64,000 nt of DNA, from assembly GCA_030523605.1 (NCBI GenBank), contig JAUNIE010000001.1, positions 8,632-72,631 on the forward strand. The letters run 5' to 3'. A program made the translations under genes and the position numbers. Positions 26,925 through 51,847 of the stretch are shown here, in pieces; the stretch's first letter is position 1; the number at the start of each line of letters is the position of its first letter. The notes under the pieces are model-generated. The model made no database searches and was not told the origin of the DNA. It saw only the letters and a program-made list of their open reading frames with translations. The stretch is from Clostridia bacterium. GTDB lineage: Bacteria > Bacillota > Clostridia > Oscillospirales > Acutalibacteraceae.

Positions 26925-28520
26925 TTATTGTTCTTCACTCGGGCATTCGCCATAATGTTTTAAGTATGAAAGCATAGTTAAAACAAAATAATTGTCGTCC
27001 GATGGGGAGTTACCTGCAGGAGAACTTTCTGTATTCAGAAGGTTAGAGAAAAGATATGAAAATTCTGCTAAGTCTTCTTCCTTGCAAACCTTACAATTTT
27101 TTCGGTGTTTATTGCATATGAAATTACTGAATATATATATTACACTTTTGCTTATATTACCATCTATGAGTTCCGGTAAATCATCTTTAGAAATATTAAA
27201 TGGAGAATCTTCAGGTGGCAAAATATCGCCAAAAGCTGTACATAAAAACAACATCATGAGATTGCCGTTATTGTGTATACGGGCAGATTCTCTGTCATAA
27301 TATTCCTTGTCTTCCTTAAAGTATTTTAATTTCTTACAGACAATGGCATCACTAAAATTTGAAGGAGTTAAGGTGCCGTATTCAAGTGTGTCTGCACACA
27401 TTATTGCATATTTAAGCTTGGTTATAATTGCGAACCACGATTTTCTAAATTGGTTAATTTGAAATTTTCCAAGTTCACTACAATTTTCTTTCATATATTT
27501 ATAAGTTTCAGAGAACGAACTCTTTTTCTCAAAGCTTGGAAGGAATCCAAAGTTACAGCTATAAAGCAGTGTACGTGCATCTTCTGCTAATTTTTTTACA
27601 TAGTCTTTAATTTCGGTAACATTTTTGAATGTATCAGGTTGTAACGAATCGCTTACGCAGTCTGTAGCTGGGATGCTTTGCGCACAAAATAAATGCCGTA
27701 GATGATCTTGCGTCCAATATATCGGAGTAGCAGATGGGTCACCGCTTATACGTAATTTACGAGAAAGCAAATTACTACAACAGAATGACAGCTGGTGGCA
27801 GACATCTAGTGGTTTGTCGCCTTGGTTGATAGATGCACTCATGAAGTCATCAAGTTTAATGTCTTTTTCTAAAAATTTACCAAAAGACTCTTCAATGAAT
27901 AGTTTTGTAAAATGGAATGAAAGCAATAAGCTTTGTAAATGCGGTGTTATTGGTATTTTTATGTCAGATTCAGTATCGTATTTATCTCCAAATTTAATAG
28001 TGCTGAGTAATAGAATGCCTTCATCGCTTCTTAAAAAATTTGGAGTTATTTCAGAAAGATACTCAGGCAATTCAGGCAAAGGTTTTGTACGTGGTTTGTG
28101 CCATGGTGTTTCTGCTTCTAAATCTAAAGAATCGATAATTTGTAAAAAACGATTGACCACGCTATAAACTTTGGCGTCGAATTCTATGCGTTGTTTTACA
28201 TCCATAATATAAAGACGTGATTTATTTTCATCGAGAATGGTTAGAAGGTCATGTGCCAAAGTTTTTACTCTCAATTCTTCTATTGAGAGATATTGTGTTT
28301 CAGTGTATGGTTTTGATAAAAAATTGGGGTCGTGATACGCATCACGCATATTGGCAATCATATCAAGAACATATTTTGTGGTGGGGTTGGAAAATTTTTT
28401 TGAATATGTTCTTATGAAATCCGAGGTATTTGCAGATTTCATAGCTTTACTTTCAAAGCTGATTTGGGGTGCGATTATTAGGGCGGACAAGACTAAAGAT
28501 GTGATTTTTTGGATATTCAT
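26925..28520 (-). CDS. Secreted hypothetical protein (531 aa, Cys-rich C-terminal half)
   Basis: Signal peptide MNIQKITSLVLSALIIAPQISFESKA. No recognisable domain. Confidence 0.65.
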   Translation of the reverse strand: MNIQKITSLVLSALIIAPQISFESKAMKSANTSDFIRTYSKKFSNPTTKYVLDMIANMRDAYHDPNFLSKPYTETQYLSIEELRVKTLAHDLLTILDENKSRLYIMDVKQRIEFDAKVYSVVNRFLQIIDSLDLEAETPWHKPRTKPLPELPEYLSEITPNFLRSDEGILLLSTIKFGDKYDTESDIKIPITPHLQSLLLSFHFTKLFIEESFGKFLEKDIKLDDFMSASINQGDKPLDVCHQLSFCCSNLLSRKLRISGDPSATPIYWTQDHLRHLFCAQSIPATDCVSDSLQPDTFKNVTEIKDYVKKLAEDARTLLYSCNFGFLPSFEKKSSFSETYKYMKENCSELGKFQINQFRKSWFAIITKLKYAIMCADTLEYGTLTPSNFSDAIVCKKLKYFKEDKEYYDRESARIHNNGNLMMLFLCTAFGDILPPEDSPFNISKDDLPELIDGNISKSVIYIFSNFICNKHRKNCKVCKEEDLAEFSYLFSNLLNTESSPAGNSPSDDNYFVLTMLSYLKHYGECPSEEQ

Positions 28521-38436: not shown

Positions 38437-39273
38437 ATGCTAAGTATTGGATGTCATTTATCATCGTCTTTGGGCTATGAATCCATGGCGAAGACGGCGA
38501 TTTCAATCGGAGCAAACACGTTTCAGTACTTTACTAGAAATCCCAGAGGCGGCGCTGCCAAGGCGATTAAAGATGAAGATATTAAAGCGTACTTGAAGTT
38601 GGCAGATGAAAACAATTTTGCCAAAGTTGTGGCTCATGCGCCGTATACAATGAATTTGTGTTCTGCTGCCGAACATATAAGAGAGTTTTCTAAAAACATG
38701 TTTAAAGATGATATTATGCGTGCGGAACTAATACCCGAGAGCTACTATAATTTTCATCCTGGCAGCCACACTGGGCAAGGCACAGACGTAGGTATATCGC
38801 TAATTTGTGAGGCTTTGAACGAAACTTTAAAAGAAAGCCAAAAAACTATAGTTTTGCTCGAAACTATGGCCGGCAAAGGCAGTGAAATCGGTGGGAAGTT
38901 TGAAGAAATCGCAAAAATAAGAGAAAATGTAGAGTTAAAGGACAAAGTCGGAGTTTGTCTGGATACGTGCCACGTTTTTGATGGTGGATATAATATAGTC
39001 GGAAATTTGGAAGGTGTTTTGGAGGAATTTGATAGGATAATCGGCATTGAAAATCTCAAAGCCGTACACATAAACGACAGCAAAAATCCGATTGGAAGCC
39101 ACAAAGACCGCCATGAAAAGATAGGTGAGGGTCATATCGGAATTGATGCCATGAAAAATATAGTTAATAATAAACATCTTAAAAATCTTCCGTTTATTTT
39201 GGAAACTCCACATGATGATATTCAAGGGTATGCCGAAGAAATAAAGATGTTGAGGAATTTGTATGAAGAGTGA
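38437..39273 (+). CDS. nfo: Deoxyribonuclease IV (endonuclease IV)
   Basis: MLSIGCHLS..., AHAPYTMNL, FHPGSH, CLDTCH, HINDSKNPIGSHKDRHEKIGEG and ILETP. Confidence 0.92.
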   Translation: MLSIGCHLSSSLGYESMAKTAISIGANTFQYFTRNPRGGAAKAIKDEDIKAYLKLADENNFAKVVAHAPYTMNLCSAAEHIREFSKNMFKDDIMRAELIPESYYNFHPGSHTGQGTDVGISLICEALNETLKESQKTIVLLETMAGKGSEIGGKFEEIAKIRENVELKDKVGVCLDTCHVFDGGYNIVGNLEGVLEEFDRIIGIENLKAVHINDSKNPIGSHKDRHEKIGEGHIGIDAMKNIVNNKHLKNLPFILETPHDDIQGYAEEIKMLRNLYEE

Positions 39274-42200
39274 AACAGAGACCGAAAATGCTTTAGATTA
39301 CGAATATAAATGCGGAAAACTCAGTGAAGTAGTCATAATTTCGCTGCGGTCTTTTTTGAGTAAAATCAAGAAAAACGGACTTAAAAAAATGATAGAGACA
39401 TTTTTGCCGGGCGTAAATTTAGATGAGTTTGTTTTGCAAAAGATAAGAAATCAGATGCAAAAACGACGTGCCATTGAGCTAAAAAAAGGACTCGGGAGAA
39501 TTGATATTCAGTACCGCAGAAATGGCATTCAGATTGAGCCTGCAGGTTTTTTGCGTACGTTTATAAAGTGCATCACAATAACCGATGCTCAAATTATTCG
39601 TTCGTTTAATAATATAATTTTTCAAGTTGAAGAGTGCTATATTTACGATGATAATTACATAATCAGTAAGATTGATGAAATTATTTTTGAGCTTTCGAAA
39701 ACGGGAATTTATACGCCGAAAAACTCCGAGGAAAAGACGCTTTATGACTTTGCTATGCTCATAATAGCCAATTATTTTCAGGATAAAAACGACGTGCCGA
39801 AATGGATTTCGCCTGCGTTGAAGTCGCTTGAAAGCAGTGATTTTATTGAAAAATGGATTGAATTTCTAACCGAACACGTTTCAGAAATTATCGCACAGGT
39901 TAGCGAAAATATATTCTTTGATTTCAAATTTACGTTCGATTCTTTTTGGATTCGTACTTTTCTCAACAAAAAAACAAATAAAGGTCAGCTTTCCGAGCTT
40001 ATTAAAATGTTTGGTATTGATATAAAATCTATAATTGAAGGTTTTGCAAAAAGCTACGTGAGCCCGAGTTTTCTGCGTGGCGCCAGGGATATCATAAGCG
40101 ATATAGCTTGCGGACTTCTGAGTAATACGAGCGCCGCAAAAAATGGTCCTTTAATAATCGGTGGTGATCAGATACCTGACGGTGCATTTGATATAACAGT
40201 TTCGTTTGGCGTGAATGCGATGAACTCCAGAGCTTTTAGGTGGTACACCAAAGAAGATAAACAATGTACTTTTGAGTACTCATACGACGCAAATTTTAGC
40301 GAGTCATACTTTGCGCCTGTAGAGAGCGTCGGAGCTGCAAGGACGTTCCCGAACATTAATTTGGGACTGGTTTCGAGCTATCATGTTCAGAATTTAACAA
40401 AACATTCCGTAAATGTTGAAAACTTAAAAAGTGGCATATTTTATTATCATATTATTTGCGAAAATGACGTTTCAAAAACGTATAAACTTAGGATTAATGG
40501 AGAAAGTTCGAAGAGCAAATTTTTAGTTTTTGCGGATTCGCAGGGCATGGTCCAATCGGATTACGAAAGCTTTGAAAGTCTTACGAATAAAGCTGCGGGA
40601 AACAACCAAGATGCCGATTTTATGGTACATTTGGGCGATTTTGTGGATGACGGCAACAATGAGGATTACTGGAAATGGGTTCTTTCGGGCGATGTCTGGA
40701 AAGAAAACGCTTTTTTGGCACTCAGCGGTAATCACGAGGCACGCAGGAACGTCGTTGCACACGGTGCAAACGTTGGGAATTCGGTGTTGGGGCATTTTAA
40801 TTTGCCTGTTACAAAGGAGCAAAGCAAAGATTTAGGTGCATATTATAGTGTGGATTACAAAAATATGACTATTATCGCTCTAAATACCAATACAGGCGGA
40901 GAAGTTGGGCTTGATGATAAACAGTATAGATGGGCTATCGAAACGGCGAAAAAATCGAAATCCAAGTGGAAAATTTTGCTTACTCATAAATCTCTGTACT
41001 CCAACGGCCCGCACCACAAAGACCCCGATGTAAAGTTGATCGGCAAGCAGATTGACGACATAGCATACTATGGCGGTATAGATTTGGTAATCGGCGGGCA
41101 TGACCATGTTTATGCTCGGACGCCCGTGCTTGCTCAAGGATGTGTTAATTCGGCGCAAAGCGAAGCATGCATTTTAGGAGACAGAAAATATAAATCATAC
41201 ATTAACCCTAAAGGCACAATATTTGTTGTTCCAGGTACTTCGGGAGTCAAAAACTACAAGCAGCATTTTCCTGCAGGATTCCCCTCTGAAAAGCTCCTAG
41301 ATTTGCATTTACCTGTTTATTCTGAGGTTTCTGTGAGTGATGACGGACTTTATTTTGATGCGTATTCGTTCGACGAAAAAACAGATAAATTTACCAGAGT
41401 GGATTCTTTCGGAATAATCAAAAGAGCCGAAAATGAAGAGATTTTGAGCGCAAAATCGGTGGACGCCATGATTGAGGCTGTTCCTGATATTCCCTGGAAG
41501 GACCATGAAAAAGCCATTTTGGAAATTCAGCAAAAGTATTCTTTAATGGATTATTCGGAAAAGCTCAAGCTTGAGAATTATACTAAATTTTTGAATCTTT
41601 TGGCTGTAAACAGGCATTATAAAAACATCACACAGAGTAAGATAGCGGTTGTGCGGACTTTAAAAGAGTTTTTGGCGGCTGTAGAAGACGAAAAAATTGG
41701 TACGATTATAACGGATTGCAGCGAAATAAGCTTTGAGAGCGCTGTCCGGTTTGCAAGGAAGATATACATAAAGCGTTCGCTGTGCATTGCGGGCGATGCC
41801 AAGCTTTCGCACGTTAGATTTGTTATTTGCGAGGACTCTTGTGTCATGCTTAAAGGCAGTGTGTGCGTTGATAATACCCGAAAACCGTTTTCGGTTTTTC
41901 CCGCTTATGATGCCTTTGAAATGTATGATAATTCTATATTTATACTTAGTGAAAACGCCAGTGTAAATAATGGATATGGAATAGGAAAACAAGGATACGG
42001 CATAAACGTAAAGGGCGAAAACGCTACGGTATATTTGAGCACATCGGGCCATAATTTTGCGAGAAACGGATTTGTTTTTTCTCCAAACAGCACTTCATCT
42101 GTGAAAATAAATTCGGGCAAATATATTTCATGCAGTCGTAAGTATAGCTTGAATGTAAATGGTGATACTAGATTAAGCGGAGGTTTTGTGCGCAGTATAG

Positions 42201-42427
42201 AGCTGGGCGAAGATGGTAGGCTCTGTATGATAGGCGGCACAGTCGGTGATAATCAAAGAAAATCACTTACGTATCCTATCAAAATACAAGGGAAAGCGGA
42301 TATATTTTCGGGTACGATTAATTCTCACGGAGGCGTTTCGATATGTCTTGAAGAAGGTTCGGGTATAACTCTGGACAAAAAACACGATAATACTATTGAT
42401 ATAAAGGGGAAAGTTTTATATAATTAA
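39263..42427 (+). CDS. Large multidomain metallophosphoesterase (purple-acid-phosphatase-like core; unknown N-domain; repetitive C-terminal region)
   Basis: 1054 aa. Metal-ligand blocks FADSQG, HLGDFVDDGNNEDYW, SGNHE, LLTHKSLY and GGHDHVYAR. No signal peptide. Overlaps nfo by 11 nt. Confidence 0.8.
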   Translation: MKSETETENALDYEYKCGKLSEVVIISLRSFLSKIKKNGLKKMIETFLPGVNLDEFVLQKIRNQMQKRRAIELKKGLGRIDIQYRRNGIQIEPAGFLRTFIKCITITDAQIIRSFNNIIFQVEECYIYDDNYIISKIDEIIFELSKTGIYTPKNSEEKTLYDFAMLIIANYFQDKNDVPKWISPALKSLESSDFIEKWIEFLTEHVSEIIAQVSENIFFDFKFTFDSFWIRTFLNKKTNKGQLSELIKMFGIDIKSIIEGFAKSYVSPSFLRGARDIISDIACGLLSNTSAAKNGPLIIGGDQIPDGAFDITVSFGVNAMNSRAFRWYTKEDKQCTFEYSYDANFSESYFAPVESVGAARTFPNINLGLVSSYHVQNLTKHSVNVENLKSGIFYYHIICENDVSKTYKLRINGESSKSKFLVFADSQGMVQSDYESFESLTNKAAGNNQDADFMVHLGDFVDDGNNEDYWKWVLSGDVWKENAFLALSGNHEARRNVVAHGANVGNSVLGHFNLPVTKEQSKDLGAYYSVDYKNMTIIALNTNTGGEVGLDDKQYRWAIETAKKSKSKWKILLTHKSLYSNGPHHKDPDVKLIGKQIDDIAYYGGIDLVIGGHDHVYARTPVLAQGCVNSAQSEACILGDRKYKSYINPKGTIFVVPGTSGVKNYKQHFPAGFPSEKLLDLHLPVYSEVSVSDDGLYFDAYSFDEKTDKFTRVDSFGIIKRAENEEILSAKSVDAMIEAVPDIPWKDHEKAILEIQQKYSLMDYSEKLKLENYTKFLNLLAVNRHYKNITQSKIAVVRTLKEFLAAVEDEKIGTIITDCSEISFESAVRFARKIYIKRSLCIAGDAKLSHVRFVICEDSCVMLKGSVCVDNTRKPFSVFPAYDAFEMYDNSIFILSENASVNNGYGIGKQGYGINVKGENATVYLSTSGHNFARNGFVFSPNSTSSVKINSGKYISCSRKYSLNVNGDTRLSGGFVRSIELGEDGRLCMIGGTVGDNQRKSLTYPIKIQGKADIFSGTINSHGGVSICLEEGSGITLDKKHDNTIDIKGKVLYN

Positions 42428-46654: not shown

Positions 46655-47650
46655 GTGGGGGATTTTGTAGTGACTAAAATTAGAACGTTTACAAAAATTG
46701 TATTTTTACTGTGTTTGTCATTGCTTTTCGGTAATTATCAAGTGGGTGCCGTTTCAAAAAATAATTCCGGAAAAGTATCTCAAAGTAGGAAAGTGTCATC
46801 CGGTAAAGATTTTCGGATAGACAGCAGCGGAGTTCTGATGAGTTATAGTGGTACAGCGGAAAATGTTGTGGTTCCAAACGGTGTTAAGTCTATATCTTTT
46901 GGGGCTTTCATGGACCACCCTGAGATAAAAAGTATAAGCCTTCCAAACGGATTGCTGACAATTGATGAATGTGCATTTTATGGTTGTACGTCGCTGAAAA
47001 TGATTGATTTACCAGAAAGCGTAGTTCGTATCGATAGGCTTGCGTTCGGTAGTTGTACTTCGCTTGAGAAAATTTATATGGGTAAAAATGTAAAGGATAT
47101 TGCCGAACTTTTTGTGTGTGATTGCCCGAAATTATGCAAATTTGAAGTGAATGAGAGTAATGAAAACTTCAAAGTGGTTGACGGTATTTTATACAGTAAA
47201 GATATGACCAAATTAATTTTATGTCCTCAAAATACGCCTGAAATTATATCGATACCCGATGAAGTCTTGACGATTAAAGAACAATCATTTTTTGAGTGTA
47301 ACAATTTGAATATAGGTAAAAACGTGAAATATATTGATGAAGCTGCATTTTACGGCTGTAAAAATTTGAAAACTGTTAATATAGGCGATTCAGTAAAGAA
47401 AATTCGTTCGTATGCTTTTGCGGAATGTTCATCACTTGAGGAATTCTGCGTGGGTAAAAATGTTACATATATCGGCAATGGAGCATTTTATAATTGTAAT
47501 AATCTAAACAAATTCACCTGTTTGAATAAGAAAATTGAATTTGGGGCAGATGTTTTTACGCAGGGACTGGGTTTAACGTTCTGTGTTTCAGACAATTCTG
47601 ATGCGTGTGAGTATGCCGTGAGTAATAAATTCAATTTTGAAATTGTGTAA
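46655..47650 (+). CDS. Secreted leucine-rich-repeat protein (BspA-like LRR_5 type)
   Basis: Signal peptide TKIVFLLCLSLLFGNYQVGA. Repeated units of ~23 aa of the form I..I...AF..C..L..I.IP..V (e.g. SISFGAFMDHPEIKSISLPNGL, IDECAFYGCTSLKMIDLPESV). The start may be GTG at 46670. Confidence 0.8.
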   Translation: MGDFVVTKIRTFTKIVFLLCLSLLFGNYQVGAVSKNNSGKVSQSRKVSSGKDFRIDSSGVLMSYSGTAENVVVPNGVKSISFGAFMDHPEIKSISLPNGLLTIDECAFYGCTSLKMIDLPESVVRIDRLAFGSCTSLEKIYMGKNVKDIAELFVCDCPKLCKFEVNESNENFKVVDGILYSKDMTKLILCPQNTPEIISIPDEVLTIKEQSFFECNNLNIGKNVKYIDEAAFYGCKNLKTVNIGDSVKKIRSYAFAECSSLEEFCVGKNVTYIGNGAFYNCNNLNKFTCLNKKIEFGADVFTQGLGLTFCVSDNSDACEYAVSNKFNFEIV

Positions 47651-47726: not shown

Positions 47727-47755
47727 TTGCTTTTCAAAATAGTTTGTGATATGAT
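47727..47755 (+). promoter_or_regulatory. Promoter of the nucleotide translocase gene
   Basis: TTGCTT (47727-47732), 17-nt spacer, TGaTATGAT (the -10 is at 47750-47755). Confidence 0.6.
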
Positions 47756-47817
47756 TAATCGGCAAACCCTAAAATAGGGTAAAGTGATTAAATTTTTTAA
47801 GAAAGGATTTGGTGTCG

Positions 47818-49326
47818 ATGAACGACAAACAATCAACCGGTTCTACGCAACCTGAATTTGGTCGCATAAGATCGGCTCTGTGGCCTGTACACGGCTACGA
47901 AATGAAGAAGTTCCTTTCAATGAGCTTCCTCATGTTTTTCATTCTCTTCGTATACACAATGGTAAGAGATTTGAAAGACCCCTTGGTGCAATATTACGCA
48001 GTAGGAGGCGGCCCTGAGCTTATTTCTCAGCTTAAGCTTTTCTTCGTTATGCCGATGGCATTTTTACTGGTAATGGTGTACTCAACACTTATTAATAAGT
48101 TCGGCTTCAACAAAACATTCTACATAATGATAACATTTTTTGTAGCGTTCTATGTTTTGTTCGTAACGTTCTTATTCCCGCAAAGAGCACTCATTCACCC
48201 CGGCGAAGCCACAGTTAAGGCAATGCAAGAATCCTGGCCCCCGTTCCTTTATTGGACGATTCCGTGTTTGACAAACTGGTCAATCACATTATTCTATGTA
48301 TTCTCCGAGCTTTGGGGAACAATGGCAGTATCGTCACTCTTCTGGCAATTCGCATACAAAGCAACCATGAAAAATGAAGTTAAGAGATTCTTCGGACTTT
48401 ACGCACTTGTTGCAAACGTTGGTGTTATCGGTTCGGGATCACTCCTTAAGTACATATCTCACGCATTCCCCGGTGAAATGTCAATCACCGTGAGCGTTAT
48501 TTGTGCTATTATTGGCGGACTTATCTCCGTGGGACTTTTCGCTTATATCAATGGCGTTGTATTGAAAGACCCGAGATATTTCGATGCATCACAAGTAAAA
48601 GAAAAGAAAAAGAAGGAAAAAGTCGGAGTTATGGACGGAATCAAGATGCTATTCCAAAATCCATATTTGCTCCTCATTTGTACAATCGTAATTTGCTACG
48701 GTGTTGCTATTAACTTCTTTGAAGTTATTTGGAAAGCATACATGAAACTTGCATTTAGAGATCCTAACCAATATCAGGGCATGATGGGAAATCTGTCTAT
48801 TGTTACGGGCGGATTGACTATCGTCGCTTCGATAATCGGTCAGAACATTCTAAGAAAAACAAAATGGAGAACCGCAGCTCTTATTCCTGCCTCCATATTG
48901 GCAATTTTCGGTGGTATATTCTTTGTTATAGTTCTTTATCACAGAGGCGGCGTGAACGAATTCATGGGATTGAATTTAGTTATGTTGGCAGTGTGGTTCG
49001 GACTTGTACAAGATGCACTTTCAAAGAGCGTAAAATATTGTCTATTTGATGCAACCAAGAACATGGCTTACTTGCCGCTTGACGCAGATACAAAGACAAA
49101 AGGTCAAGCAGCGGTCGAAGTTATTGGCGGACGTGCAGGTAAAGCAGGCGCATCTGCAATTCAGACGATTCTTATCAACGTAGTTGCAGCAGGCTCAAAA
49201 CTTACAAGTCACGTAGGAACAATTGCAGTAGTTTTCGCACTTACGGCAATCGGTTGGATTACTTCGGTATTCAAACTCAGCAAAAAATATGAAGCAAAAG
49301 TTGCAGAAAACGCAGCAAAAGAATAA
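47818..49326 (+). CDS. tlc: ATP:ADP antiporter / nucleotide transporter of the Tlc-NTT family (PF03219-like)
   Basis: About 12 TM segments. N-terminus RSALWPVHGYEMKKFLSMSFLMFFILFVYTMVRDLKD. Blocks FSELWGTMAVSSLFWQFA and KYCLFDATKNMAYLPLDADTKTKGQAAVEVIGGRAGKAGAS are nearly identical to the Rickettsia Tlc1 / Chlamydia Npt1 signatures as I recall them. ATG at 47818 after GAAAGGA. Confidence 0.9.
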   Translation: MNDKQSTGSTQPEFGRIRSALWPVHGYEMKKFLSMSFLMFFILFVYTMVRDLKDPLVQYYAVGGGPELISQLKLFFVMPMAFLLVMVYSTLINKFGFNKTFYIMITFFVAFYVLFVTFLFPQRALIHPGEATVKAMQESWPPFLYWTIPCLTNWSITLFYVFSELWGTMAVSSLFWQFAYKATMKNEVKRFFGLYALVANVGVIGSGSLLKYISHAFPGEMSITVSVICAIIGGLISVGLFAYINGVVLKDPRYFDASQVKEKKKKEKVGVMDGIKMLFQNPYLLLICTIVICYGVAINFFEVIWKAYMKLAFRDPNQYQGMMGNLSIVTGGLTIVASIIGQNILRKTKWRTAALIPASILAIFGGIFFVIVLYHRGGVNEFMGLNLVMLAVWFGLVQDALSKSVKYCLFDATKNMAYLPLDADTKTKGQAAVEVIGGRAGKAGASAIQTILINVVAAGSKLTSHVGTIAVVFALTAIGWITSVFKLSKKYEAKVAENAAKE

Positions 49327-49337
49327 TAAATATTTTG

Positions 49338-49376
49338 GAGCGACCGGGAATAGTTCGGTTGCTCTTTTATTTTTTT
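49338..49376 (+). terminator. Rho-independent terminator after the translocase gene
   Basis: 9-bp stem GAGCGACCG / CGGTTGCTC, then TTTTATTTTTTT. Confidence 0.75.
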
Positions 49377-49396: not shown

Positions 49397-49425
49397 TTGC
49401 TTTTATTGAATTTTTATGTTATCAT
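49397..49425 (+). promoter_or_regulatory. Promoter of the S10 ribosomal protein operon
   Basis: TTGCTT (49397-49402), 17-nt spacer, TGtTATCAT (the -10 is at 49420-49425). Leaves a ~280-nt leader before rpsJ. Confidence 0.65.
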
Positions 49426-49712
49426 ACTTAAGTACGACTGCAAATGATATGCGTTGAAGCGGGAGGTTGCGGCATTTATGTCGGTTTTTCCGTGGAGTAT
49501 GTCCGATTTTAAACCGGGCGAAAGTTTTAATGTTTTTAATTCAGGTTTACATATTTATGGTTAAATTTGTATTTAAAATCATACTTTTATCTTATTCGGG
49601 TCGAACGTAAAAGTTTAATCCGTATTTTATTTGCCCAATTTTGGAAACACCCGGGCAAGTGGATAATTTAAAAGTGCGCCCACCACTAAATTTTAAGTAA
49701 GGAGGCGATTTA

Positions 49713-50039
49713 ATGGCAGTCAGAGCCGCAAAGGCTAAAGAAAAAATAAGAATCAGAGTAAAGGGTTATGATCCGCAGTTAGTCGACGGAGCATCTCAAA
49801 AGATCGTTCAGACGGCGTCAAGAACGGGCTCGAAGATTTCAGGTCCGGTACCGCTACCGACCGAAAAGCAAGTCGTAACAATTCTTCGTTCCACACACAT
49901 CAACAAAGATAGCCGTGAACAGTTTGAGATGAGGACCCACAAAAGACTTATTGATGTTCTCAGACCATCAAATAAGACAGTTGATTCTTTAACAAACTTG
50001 GAACTCCCTGCAGGTGTTGAGATTGAGATTAAACTCTAA
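49713..50039 (+). CDS. rpsJ: 30S ribosomal protein S10
   Basis: [15 protein letters not shown]...GPVPLPT and operon position. Confidence 0.96.
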
Positions 50040-51382: not shown

Positions 51383-51672
51383 TGTTGGCACACGACATCA
51401 TAATCAAACCGATTATTACAGAAAAAACAATGGGTGGTATGCCTAATAAAAAATACACCTTCAAAGTAGCTAAAGAAGCCGGAAAAATCGAAGTAAAAAA
51501 AGCAGTCGAAGAAGTTTTTAAAGTAAAAGTTTCGAAAGTAAATATGCTCAACGTCAGAGGAAAGTTCCGCCGTCACGGCAGATATCAAGGTTATACACCT
51601 TCGTGGAAGAAAGCGTATGTAACCTTGACCCCGGACAGTAAAGCAATCGAATTCTTTGAAGGAATGTTCTAA
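51382..51672 (+). CDS. rplW: 50S ribosomal protein L23
   Basis: [10 protein letters not shown]...[25 protein letters not shown]. Confidence 0.95.
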
Positions 51673-51673
51673 T

Positions 51674-51847
51674 ATGAAACATTCAAGATCGTACGGCTCT
51701 GTTTTATTTGTGGTCGGAGAAATTATTTCAATCATGTTTGGACTCAAAATTTTTTATGATAATTTTCCGAGCGACATGATGTGGGCCATAATCGGAGCAT
51801 CGCTCGTTATCTTCAATGTTTTAAGTTTAAGATACTATCTTAAGTAG
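51674..51847 (+). CDS. Small hypothetical two-TM membrane protein (57 aa) inserted between rplW and rplB
   Basis: The ATG lies 1 nt after the rplW TAA (TAATATG). MKHSRSYGSVLFVVGEIISIMFGLKIFYDNFPSDMMWAIIGASLVIFNVLSLRYYLK has two clear hydrophobic helices. Confidence 0.5.
   Translation: MKHSRSYGSVLFVVGEIISIMFGLKIFYDNFPSDMMWAIIGASLVIFNVLSLRYYLK

What the first reader, a model, noticed from the sequence alone, without database searches (positions are those of the whole stretch)
47727..49376. Tlc/NTT-type ATP:ADP (nucleotide) antiporter as a self-contained transcription unit next to the ribosomal operons of a Clostridia-like genome
Seen: a 502-aa protein with about 12 TM segments. Its N-terminus (RSALWPVHGYEMKKFL..FFILFVYTMVRDLKD) and internal blocks (FSELWGTMAVSSLFWQFA; KYCLFDATKNMAYLPLD..TKGQAAVEVIGGRAGKAGAS) match, almost residue for residue, the most conserved segments of Rickettsia Tlc1 and Chlamydia Npt1 as I remember them. 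It has its own extended -10 promoter (47727-47755) and a strong terminator (49338-49376). Established: this family (PF03219) is the classic energy-parasitism and nucleotide-scavenging transporter of Rickettsiales, Chlamydiae, plastids and microsporidia, and it is uncommon in Firmicutes. Inference: this organism may import ATP or other nucleotides from a host or partner cell. The neighbouring BspA-like LRR protein and the many secreted orphan proteins in this window fit a host-dependent lifestyle.
Basis: partly seen in the sequence, partly recalled or inferred. Interest (0 to 1): 0.72.

Follow-up and report, generated by a model that had tools for sequence, protein, structure and literature searches.

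The report
Nucleotide (ATP/ADP) transporter of gut Clostridia
The gene is a genuine Tlc/NTT-type nucleotide transporter, the kind intracellular parasites use to take ATP from a host, but it belongs to a small-genome group of gut and rumen Clostridia in which this transporter was already described in 2023, so it is a correct but ordinary finding.

Summary
Window 47818-49326 (+) encodes a 502-aa protein that matches Pfam TLC (PF03219) end to end (E 1.3e-137). Its model superposes on the solved Chlamydia pneumoniae and Arabidopsis ATP/ADP translocators (TM 0.89 and 0.86). It keeps all four charged residues needed for transport in AtNTT1. A promoter-like site, a strong terminator and the separate promoter and S10 leader of the ribosomal operon bound the gene. 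Two orthologous loci keep the same layout.

The exact protein is in NCBI as [quoted passage not shown]. It falls in a tight clostridial NTT cluster that includes the translocases of the protist endosymbionts Ca. Paraimprobicoccus trichonymphae (54% identity) and Ca. Vesiculincola pelomyxae (50%). Takahashi et al. 2023 described this cluster as "Clostridia ATP/ADP translocase I", the hallmark of a small-genome, putatively energy-parasitic clade of Acutalibacteraceae from termite, human and ruminant guts.

Substrate, exchange mode and host dependence cannot be tested from 64 kb. One small addition: the cluster has two paralogue types, which lie in tandem in human-gut relatives. The window carries the "a" type next to the S10 operon.

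The parts
47727..47755 (+). Putative sigma-A promoter of the NTT gene: TTGCTT, 17-nt spacer, extended -10 TGaTATGAT
   Evidence: Sequence located by script. It falls below the consensus-scan threshold because the -35 matches 3 of 6. Orthologous loci carry a stronger promoter-like site (11 of 12) in the same intergenic position. The S10 promoter in the window has the same format. Function is inferred.
47801..47807 (+). Ribosome-binding site GAAAGGA, 10 nt before the ATG
   Evidence: read directly from the sequence.
47818..49326 (+). NTT/Tlc-family nucleotide transporter gene, 502 aa ('a'-type clostridial ATP/ADP translocase I)
   Evidence: PF03219 E 1.3e-137. PDB 9j3n E 2e-99. Model against 9j3n TM 0.89, rmsd 2.3 A. 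K73, E164, E302 and K442 correspond to AtNTT1 K155, E245, E385 and K527. Identical to NCBI MDO4199189.1.
49337..49373 (+). Intrinsic terminator of the NTT gene (12-bp stem, 5-nt loop, T run)
   Evidence: -18 kcal/mol, z -4.5. Terminators of different sequence sit at the same position in L001 and L012.
46655..47650 (+). Upstream neighbour: BspA-type LRR_5 protein with a signal-peptide-like N-terminus; adjacency to the NTT gene is conserved
   Evidence: PF13306 E 1.2e-47. LRR_5 followed by NTT also occurs in L001, L006 and L012. LRR_5 is listed as a eukaryote-like domain, and an LRR orthogroup as a gain of the clade ancestor, in PMC10579323 Tables S12 and S13.
49397..49521 (+). Downstream boundary: S10-operon promoter (TTGCTT-17-TGtTATCAT, 49397-49425) and S10-Clostridia leader RNA (49445-49521)
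   Evidence: Rfam RF03136, 48.6 bits against a gathering score of 35.1. Promoter located. The same leader is found in L001 and L012. This shows the ribosomal operon is a separate unit.

Best explanation
The gene encodes a membrane nucleotide transporter of the NTT/Tlc family (TC 2.A.12) with 12 helices and an MFS-like fold. It belongs to the clostridial subfamily published as 'Clostridia ATP/ADP translocase I'. That subfamily was probably acquired once by the ancestor of a small-genome clade of Acutalibacteraceae and has been inherited vertically since. The most likely mechanism is the one solved for C. pneumoniae NTT1 and AtNTT1: alternating-access counter-exchange, with external ATP moving in and internal ADP plus phosphate moving out. 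This would let the bacterium draw energy, and probably purine nucleotides, from the cytoplasm of a eukaryotic host, most plausibly a gut or rumen protist. The gene is expressed as its own monocistronic unit, with its own promoter, strong RBS and terminator. It lies immediately upstream of the S10 ribosomal operon, about 32 kb from dnaA (the likely replication origin) and co-oriented with replication, a position that favours high constitutive expression. Shown here: family, fold, key residues, the gene boundaries (coding region, terminator, separate S10 promoter and leader), conserved synteny and the position in the clostridial cluster. Inferred: the promoter's function, ATP/ADP as the substrate pair, exchange mode, an intracellular lifestyle and the identity of the host.
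For: Family and fold. The four charged residues required for transport and counter-exchange in AtAATP1 (K155, E245, E385, K527; Trentmann 2000 as cited in PMC10654386) are identified by their exact spacing in the 9j3j chain. They are K73, E164, E302 and K442 here and are kept in 127-129 of the 129 aligned sequences. The best structural match is the ATP-bound ATP/ADP exchanger CpNTT1 (TM 0.89). A neighbour-joining tree puts the window protein inside a monophyletic clostridial cluster with Ca. Paraimprobicoccus trichonymphae (P0077, 54%) and Ca. Vesiculincola pelomyxae (P0117, 50%). Holosporaceae (35%), another proteobacterium (37%), CpNTT1 and AtNTT1 fall outside. In the library clustered at 50% identity the clostridial cluster collapses to three representatives, and the score then drops from 497 to 410 bits. 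Close relatives of both the NTT (P0156, 68% cluster) and GyrA (P0275, 83%) are labelled Acutalibacteraceae. Window GC is 38%, within the clade's 30-39%. A relative with 86% GyrA identity sits on a 1.316-Mb contig. NTT GC and GC3 match those of housekeeping genes, so there is no sign of recent transfer. NTT and GyrA of relatives occur on contigs of identical recorded length (160,521 and 378,450 bp), probably the same contigs, and their identities fall together. The order Metallophos-VanY-GltX-GlnS-LRR_5-NTT-S10 operon is kept in L001 and L012. Literature: members of this clade lack net ATP-generating pathways, carry the translocase, and transcribe it (PMC10579323). In Ca. Vesiculincola NTT expression exceeds that of most glycolytic enzymes (PMC10579272). 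A rumen-ciliate-associated Acutalibacteraceae MAG carries the gene (bioRxiv 10.1101/2025.07.29.667580).
Against: No transport assay exists for any clostridial NTT. NTT phylogeny does not reliably predict substrate: Rickettsia Tlc1-5 and Protochlamydia NTT1-5 differ in substrate and mode despite sharing the fold (established knowledge, not tested here). The four charged residues are also kept in the 'b' paralogue, so they do not discriminate specificity. The TIGR00769 score (378.2) is just under its curated cut-off of 387.2. Membership of the window organism in the published small-genome clade is inferred, not shown by a marker-gene tree: the GyrA search was saturated by relatives of at least 81% identity and never reached the named endosymbionts. 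Nothing in the 64 kb bears on glycolysis, ATP synthase or purine synthesis. Ca. Vesiculincola, which has the same transporter, keeps glycolysis. The promoter is a modest consensus match.
Confidence: 0.62

Rival explanations
1. The protein is an NTT used mainly for net import of nucleotides as building blocks (Npt2Ct, PamNTT3/5 or RpTlc4/5-like, proton-driven or broad NTP exchange) rather than for energy exchange.
For: [quoted passage not shown] The clostridial cluster holds two old paralogue types, found in tandem in human-gut relatives (L002, L013). Paralogue sets in Chlamydia and Rickettsia show this kind of division of labour. The window protein is the 'a' type, whereas the endosymbiont Ca. 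Paraimprobicoccus is nearer the 'b' type (59-61% against 51-55%).
Against: The closest solved and characterised relatives are ATP/ADP exchangers. All four residues tied to counter-exchange are kept. Only 13 mostly conservative positions separate 'a' from 'b'. In L001 and L012 only the 'a' gene was found within the 13.5 kb sampled around it, as in the 64-kb window, where a sole transporter would be expected to cover ATP.
Confidence: 0.2
2. The bacterium is not intracellular. The transporter scavenges extracellular ATP and nucleotides from the gut lumen, from lysed cells, or from a surface-attached partner (epibiont lifestyle).
For: Related MAGs are reported from human guts on several continents (Table S11), and the authors say their localisation is unknown. 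The window and its relatives encode cell-wall and envelope functions (VanY, Wzy-like, sugar transferase, LysM). Relatives keep sporulation or germination genes (SpoIIP, SpoVAD, CspB), which fits life stages outside a host cell.
Against: Every member of the cluster with a known location is inside a protist (termite flagellates, Pelomyxa), and the one rumen MAG studied is enriched in ciliate-associated fractions without microscopy. Counter-exchange needs a high external ATP/ADP ratio, which cytoplasm provides and lumen does not (established knowledge).
Confidence: 0.13
3. The protein transports a cofactor such as NAD+ (PamNTT4-like) or another adenine-containing metabolite.
For: The NTT fold accommodates NAD+/ADP exchange in Protochlamydia (established knowledge; cited in the reference list seen). 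Clade members lack cofactor biosynthesis.
Against: No specific similarity to such a transporter could be tested. The nearest characterised proteins are ATP/ADP exchangers.
Confidence: 0.04
4. The protein is a non-nucleotide MFS carrier that only resembles NTTs.
For: Weak secondary hits to MFS and GPH models (TIGR00792 E 9.5e-05; PF07690 on some homologues).
Against: The full-length TLC match is about 130 orders of magnitude better. Other MFS structures match at TM 0.60 or lower and about 12% identity, against 0.89 and 35% for NTT1.
Confidence: 0.01

Closest known systems
'Clostridia ATP/ADP translocase I' of the small-genome Acutalibacteraceae clade (Takahashi et al. 2023, ISME J, PMC10579323), e.g. 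Ca. Paraimprobicoccus trichonymphae BED92579.1
   Same: Same monophyletic clostridial NTT cluster (54% identity). Same length and conserved charged residues. Low-GC host genome with LRR_5 proteins. Related MAGs from ruminant and human guts.
   Different: The genomic context differs: alr and tsaD flank the gene in Ca. Paraimprobicoccus, LRR_5 and the S10 operon here. The window protein is the 'a' paralogue type, and the termite endosymbiont is nearer the 'b' type. Whether this particular MAG was among the 23 (2023) or 41 (2025) genomes analysed is unknown.
NTT of Ca. Vesiculincola pelomyxae (MDQ5983515.1; Treitli et al. 2023, PMC10579272)
   Same: Same clostridial cluster (50% identity). Acutalibacteraceae endosymbiont of an anaerobic protist. 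The transporter is highly expressed.
   Different: That organism keeps full glycolysis and lives in host vesicles. Its gene context is different.
Chlamydia pneumoniae NTT1 (Npt1), PDB 9j3n and 9j3o
   Same: Sequence E 2e-99. Model superposes at TM 0.89, rmsd 2.3 A, 35% identity. N-terminal FG.LRS.LWP.H..E.KK motif and all four charged residues shared.
   Different: Different phylum. It lies outside the clostridial cluster in the tree. ATP/ADP exchange is demonstrated for it and not for the window protein.
Arabidopsis plastid ATP/ADP translocator AtNTT1 (AATP1), PDB 9j3j, 9j3l and 9j3m
   Same: E 2e-78, TM 0.86. K155, E245, E385 and K527 are all conserved.
   Different: Eukaryotic plastid envelope protein with a transit peptide, and more distant in sequence (about 33%).
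Rickettsia prowazekii Tlc1 (archetype of PF03219)
   Same: Same Pfam family. An alphaproteobacterial relative (a Holosporaceae MAG) is 35% identical.

Membership tests
NTT / Tlc nucleotide transporter family (Pfam PF03219; TC 2.A.12) | Significant, full-length match to the TLC profile | tested here: met
   E 1.3e-137, 460 bits against a cut-off of 21; residues 10-491 on profile positions 4-491 of 491.
NTT / Tlc nucleotide transporter family (Pfam PF03219; TC 2.A.12) | 12-helix MFS-like fold matching solved NTT structures | tested here: met
   Model pLDDT 84, pTM 0.85. TM 0.89 to 9j3n and 0.86 to 9j3l; the next non-NTT MFS hits are at 0.60 or lower.
NTT / Tlc nucleotide transporter family (Pfam PF03219; TC 2.A.12) | Four charged intramembrane residues (AtAATP1 K155, E245, E385, K527) | tested here: met
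   K73, E164, E302 and K442. The mapping was fixed by the 90/140/142-residue spacing in chain 9j3j.
NTT / Tlc nucleotide transporter family (Pfam PF03219; TC 2.A.12) | Score above the curated cut-off of NCBIfam TIGR00769 (NTP/NDP exchange transporter) | tested here: inconclusive
   378.2 bits against a cut-off of 387.2, E 6.4e-113, full-length alignment. This is a marginal miss of a superfamily-level model.
NTT / Tlc nucleotide transporter family (Pfam PF03219; TC 2.A.12) | Measured nucleotide transport | not testable with these tools
   Needs heterologous expression and radiolabelled uptake.
Class I ATP/ADP counter-exchangers (Npt1, Tlc1, AtNTT1, PamNTT1) | Phylogenetic placement with characterised exchangers rather than with proton-symport or NAD+ NTTs | tested here: inconclusive
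   The only characterised references available (CpNTT1, AtNTT1) are exchangers and are the best solved matches. No Npt2, Tlc4/5 or PamNTT2-5 sequences could be obtained for the tree. The published tree puts the cluster sister to an Alphaproteobacteria and Chlamydiae clade.
Clostridia ATP/ADP translocase I (small-genome Acutalibacteraceae clade) | Groups with the translocases of the named clostridial endosymbionts, to the exclusion of proteobacterial and chlamydial NTTs | tested here: met
   Neighbour-joining tree of 129 sequences. 50-54% identity to the endosymbiont proteins against 35-37% to proteobacterial ones. Score gap in the library clustered at 50% identity. No bootstrap or maximum-likelihood analysis was run.
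Clostridia ATP/ADP translocase I (small-genome Acutalibacteraceae clade) | Host genome is a small (0.86-1.4 Mb), 30-39% GC member of Acutalibacteraceae | tested here: inconclusive
   GC 38%. Close relatives are labelled Acutalibacteraceae. A relative with 86% GyrA identity sits on a 1.316-Mb contig. The genome size and phylogenomic position of this organism itself were not obtainable.
Clostridia ATP/ADP translocase I (small-genome Acutalibacteraceae clade) | Absence of net ATP-generating pathways and of nucleotide, amino-acid and cofactor biosynthesis | not testable with these tools
   Only 64 kb is available. It holds replication, tRNA-modification, aminoacyl-tRNA synthetase, envelope and ribosomal genes.
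Clostridia ATP/ADP translocase I (small-genome Acutalibacteraceae clade) | Accompanying eukaryote-like or effector-type proteins (LRR_5, Metallophos and others) | tested here: met
   The LRR_5 protein is adjacent. A 1054-aa Metallophos protein lies at 39263-42427. Both domains are on the clade's published list. These domains are common in gut bacteria, so this is weak evidence.

The most novel reading that the evidence does not exclude
Within the gut Acutalibacteraceae the translocase duplicated early into 'a' and 'b' types, which lie in tandem in human-gut lineages. The two may have divided the work independently of Chlamydia and Rickettsia, one exchanging ATP for ADP and the other importing nucleotides. 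The rumen lineage of this window would then have moved the 'a' copy to a high-expression slot in front of the S10 operon near the origin as its main energy gate. This would mark it as an obligate energy parasite of rumen protists.
Probability: 0.2. Interest if true: 0.5.

Novelty: already known. Interest (0 to 1): 0.25.

Why it matters
ATP/ADP translocases are the signature of energy parasitism, and finding one in a Gram-positive gut lineage is biologically notable. That point was made in 2023 (PMC10579323, PMC10579272) and extended to rumen ciliates in 2025. This window adds one more annotated example. It also adds some detail: conserved monocistronic architecture, placement next to the S10 operon about 32 kb from dnaA, and two paralogue types within the clostridial cluster. 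The open questions are substrate and exchange mode, the identity of the hosts in ruminants and humans, and whether these bacteria are truly intracellular. All of these need experiments and whole genomes, not this window.

Tried and rejected
(1) The genome-contig scan with the protein gave only 5 confirmed loci, with generic titles such as 'Clostridia bacterium', so no fine taxonomy came from it.

(2) A GyrA search meant to link the organism to the named endosymbionts was saturated: all 120 listed hits are at least 81% identical gut or rumen MAG proteins. It gave only a family-level label and a 1.3-Mb contig.

(3) Looking up the nearest non-clostridial representatives (P0289-P0298) returned no organism names, so the donor lineage could not be checked.

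(4) The paper behind PDB 9j3j-9j3o is not in the library. Nucleotide-contacting residues beyond the four classical charged positions could therefore not be mapped.

(5) No Rfam family, including any riboswitch, matches the NTT 5' UTR even at E up to 1. The only RNA element nearby is the S10 leader.

(6) A comparison of 'a' and 'b' paralogues found 13 discriminating, mostly conservative positions, which is no basis for predicting different substrates.

(7) There is no second NTT in the window (tblastn).

(8) Pairwise alignment of the window and L001 upstream regions is AT-rich and only 70% identical, so promoter conservation is positional rather than in sequence.

No bootstrap or maximum-likelihood analysis was done.

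(10) Recent horizontal transfer was considered and rejected: NTT GC and GC3 equal those of housekeeping genes, and the gene co-diverges with GyrA and the aminoacyl-tRNA synthetases.
Full report
**What is in the sequence**

The + strand carries an ORF from 47809 (TTG) or 47818 (ATG) to 49326. The ATG lies 10 nt after the ribosome-binding site GAAAGGA (47801-47807), while the TTG is 1 nt after it. The 502-aa product is therefore the likely one, although public databases hold both 502-aa and 505-aa versions.

The protein matches Pfam TLC (PF03219) over the whole profile (E 1.3e-137, 460 bits). It matches NCBIfam TIGR00769 'NTP/NDP exchange transporter' at 378 bits, just under that model's cut-off of 387. 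By sequence, the best solved structures are the Chlamydia pneumoniae ATP/ADP translocator NTT1 (9j3n, E 2e-99) and Arabidopsis AtNTT1 (9j3j, E 2e-78). An AlphaFold model built on 32 homologues (pLDDT 84, pTM 0.85) superposes on ATP-bound CpNTT1 at TM 0.89 and rmsd 2.3 A, and on AtNTT1 at TM 0.86. Unrelated MFS carriers reach TM 0.60 or lower at about 12% identity.

**Functional residues**

Four charged intramembrane residues of AtAATP1 (K155, E245, E385, K527) are reported as essential for transport efficiency, specificity and counter-exchange (Trentmann 2000, as summarised in PMC10654386). I located them in the 9j3j chain by their exact 90/140/142-residue spacing (chain K71, E161, E301, K443). 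They align to K73, E164, E302 and K442 of the window protein. In an alignment of 129 NTTs, the four are present in 129, 128, 127 and 128 sequences respectively.

**Transcription unit**

It is only a modest consensus match, and promoter-like sites in the region are no more frequent than in shuffled sequence. The terminator at 49337-49365 plus a T run is strong: 12-bp stem, -18 kcal/mol, z = -4.5.

Downstream there is a second promoter of the same format (TTGCTT-17-TGtTATCAT, 49397-49425). It is followed by an S10-Clostridia ribosomal leader RNA (RF03136, 49445-49521) ahead of rpsJ at 49713.

Two orthologous loci, L001 (goat MAG RGIG2248, NTT 76% identical) and L012 (NTT 65% identical), have the same layout. 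Each has a promoter-like site (TTTACA-17-TATAAT, 11 of 12) between the LRR gene and the NTT gene. Each has a 13-bp-stem terminator of unrelated sequence right after the NTT gene, and then its own S10 promoter and leader. A monocistronic unit is therefore well supported by comparison, although no transcript data were available. No riboswitch or other Rfam element lies in the 5' UTR.

**Genomic setting**

The window contains the likely replication-origin region:
- dnaA (14477-15856, minus strand), dnaN, recF, gyrB and gyrA run to one side.
- yidC, jag, mnmE, mnmG, rsmG, parA, parB and serS run to the other side.
- The GC skew switches sign near 16 kb.

The NTT gene is about 32 kb from dnaA, is co-oriented with replication, and lies directly ahead of the S10-spc ribosomal cluster. 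This is a favourable position for high expression (inference). Its GC (41.3%) and GC3 (41.7%) equal those of housekeeping genes, so there is no sign of recent transfer. The order Metallophos (1054 aa)-VanY-GltX-GlnS-LRR_5-NTT-S10 operon is conserved in L001 and L012. It is not conserved in Ca. Paraimprobicoccus, Ca. Vesiculincola or human-gut relatives.

**Relatives and taxonomy**

The exact protein is in NCBI as MDO4199189.1, 'Npt1/Npt2 family nucleotide transporter [Clostridia bacterium]'. A search of 5.8 billion proteins listed 120 best hits of 48-92% identity. All of those that carry names are Clostridia, Oscillospiraceae or Acutalibacteraceae MAGs, plus two named protist endosymbionts: Ca. 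Paraimprobicoccus trichonymphae (54%) and 'Eubacteriales bacterium SKADARSKE-1' (50%), whose contig belongs to the Ca. Vesiculincola pelomyxae assembly JARLUB.

A neighbour-joining tree makes these a single cluster. A Holosporaceae MAG (35%), another proteobacterium (37%), CpNTT1 and AtNTT1 fall outside it. In the library clustered at 50% identity the NTT family has 643 clusters at E up to 1e-30. The clostridial cluster collapses to three representatives there, and the score then drops from 497 to 410 bits.

GyrA from the window finds more than 120 clusters of at least 81% identity, all from gut or rumen assemblies, and one is labelled Acutalibacteraceae. One relative (86% identity) sits on a 1,315,876-bp contig. 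NTT and GyrA homologues occur on contigs of identical recorded length (160,521 and 378,450 bp), which are probably the same contigs. Their identities fall together, as expected for vertical inheritance.

**Comparison with the literature**

Takahashi et al. 2023 (PMC10579323) described clostridial endosymbionts of termite-gut flagellates with 1.0-1.3 Mb genomes. These lack any net ATP-generating system and carry an ATP/ADP translocase that is transcribed. The endosymbionts form a 'small genome clade' of Acutalibacteraceae with 23 MAGs from humans, cattle, goats, sheep and deer (0.86-1.4 Mb apart from one 1.9-Mb outlier, 30-39% GC). Within the family the translocase ('Clostridia ATP/ADP translocase I') is exclusive to this clade, is present in all members but one, and was inferred as a gain of the clade's ancestor. 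LRR_5 and Metallophos are on their list of eukaryote-like domains, and an LRR orthogroup is among the ancestral gains.

Treitli et al. 2023 (PMC10579272) reported the same transporter, highly expressed, in Ca. Vesiculincola pelomyxae. Solomon et al. 2025 (bioRxiv 10.1101/2025.07.29.667580) found a rumen-ciliate-associated Acutalibacteraceae MAG with the translocase, in a clade of 41 small genomes.

The window's GC (38%), family-level labels, LRR_5 neighbour and position in the NTT tree all fit this clade. Formal phylogenomic placement of this organism was not possible with the tools. It is reasonable and still untested biochemically.

**What is slightly new**

The clostridial cluster contains two paralogue types:
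- The 'a' type comprises the window, L001, L012, L002a and L013a (63-77% mutual identity).
- The 'b' type comprises L002b, L013b and L003 (71-85% mutual identity).

Ca. Paraimprobicoccus is closer to 'b' (59-61%) than to 'a' (51-55%). Human-gut relatives carry 'a' and 'b' in tandem (L002, L013). In the rumen lineage the 'a' copy sits before the S10 operon, and no second copy occurs in the window. Only 13 mostly conservative positions discriminate the two types, and both keep the four charged residues. Functional divergence is therefore possible but not indicated.

**Mechanism and confidence**

That this is an NTT-family nucleotide transporter is nearly certain. That it is an ATP/ADP(+Pi) counter-exchanger used to draw energy from a eukaryotic host is the best-supported reading, at about 0.6. 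The rivals are net nucleotide import (about 0.2), scavenging of extracellular nucleotides without intracellular residence (about 0.13) and cofactor transport (about 0.04). A non-nucleotide MFS function is excluded for practical purposes.

**Verdict**

Interest is low to moderate (0.25).

Noticed in passing
window 18559-18675 (+): A 5S rRNA gene (Rfam 91.8 bits) stands alone. No 16S or 23S gene is found anywhere in the window, and it lies among orphan ORFs about 3 kb from dnaA.
   Followed up: no
window 16039-17031 (+): An orphan 330-aa protein has a clear signal peptide (MKKHLSKLMAVVLLFNSFGGFTYA) and a Fic-like motif HTFYDGNIRT. The Pfam Fic hit is only E 0.0058, below the cut-off. It may be a secreted AMPylating effector.
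   Followed up: partly
window about 25552-27650: A tandem direct repeat with a 1041-nt period. Orphan ORFs 25884-26612 (242 aa) and 26925-28520 (531 aa, signal-peptide-like N-terminus) share an identical C-terminal stretch of about 240 aa. This is either a recent duplication or an assembly artefact.
   Followed up: partly
window 16039-19912, 23806-24837 and 25884-28520: A cluster of ORFs (177-531 aa) around the likely origin region has no Pfam match, and several have signal-peptide-like N-termini.
   Followed up: partly
window 51656-51847 (+); L012 9855-10046; L007 4328-4501: A conserved hydrophobic ORF of about 60 aa with no Pfam hit on record for the L007 and L012 copies (63 aa in the window and L012; called as 57 aa in L007) is inserted between rplW and rplB inside the S10 operon, in the window and its relatives.
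   Followed up: no
window 49397-49521 (+): S10-Clostridia ribosomal leader (RF03136). Its promoter has the same TTGCTT-17-TGnTAT.AT format as the NTT promoter.
   Followed up: yes
L002 3027-6203; L013 6001-9169: Human-gut relatives carry two NTT paralogues ('a' and 'b', about 60% identical to each other) in tandem. The mouse-gut MAG locus L003 has a 'b'-type gene next to an inverted GlnS-GltX-VanY block.
   Followed up: partly
window 39263-42427 (+): A 1054-aa protein with a calcineurin-like phosphoesterase (Metallophos) domain and a weak purple-acid-phosphatase N-terminal hit. Its position is conserved in L001, L003 and L012, but its sequence diverges fast (37-44% identity).
   Followed up: partly
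Database cluster of the window protein: Cluster mates MBR2734955.1 and MBR2578839.1 are named 'AAA family ATPase' in NCBI. This is probably a mis-expansion of 'AAA' (ATP:ADP antiporter family, TIGR00769).
   Followed up: no
window 14477-15856 (-) and the skew switch near 16 kb: The window spans the likely chromosomal replication origin, with dnaA-dnaN-recF-gyrB-gyrA on one side and yidC-jag-mnmE-mnmG-rsmG-parAB on the other. dnaA is present here, unlike in Ca. Paraimprobicoccus, which is reported to lack it.
   Followed up: partly
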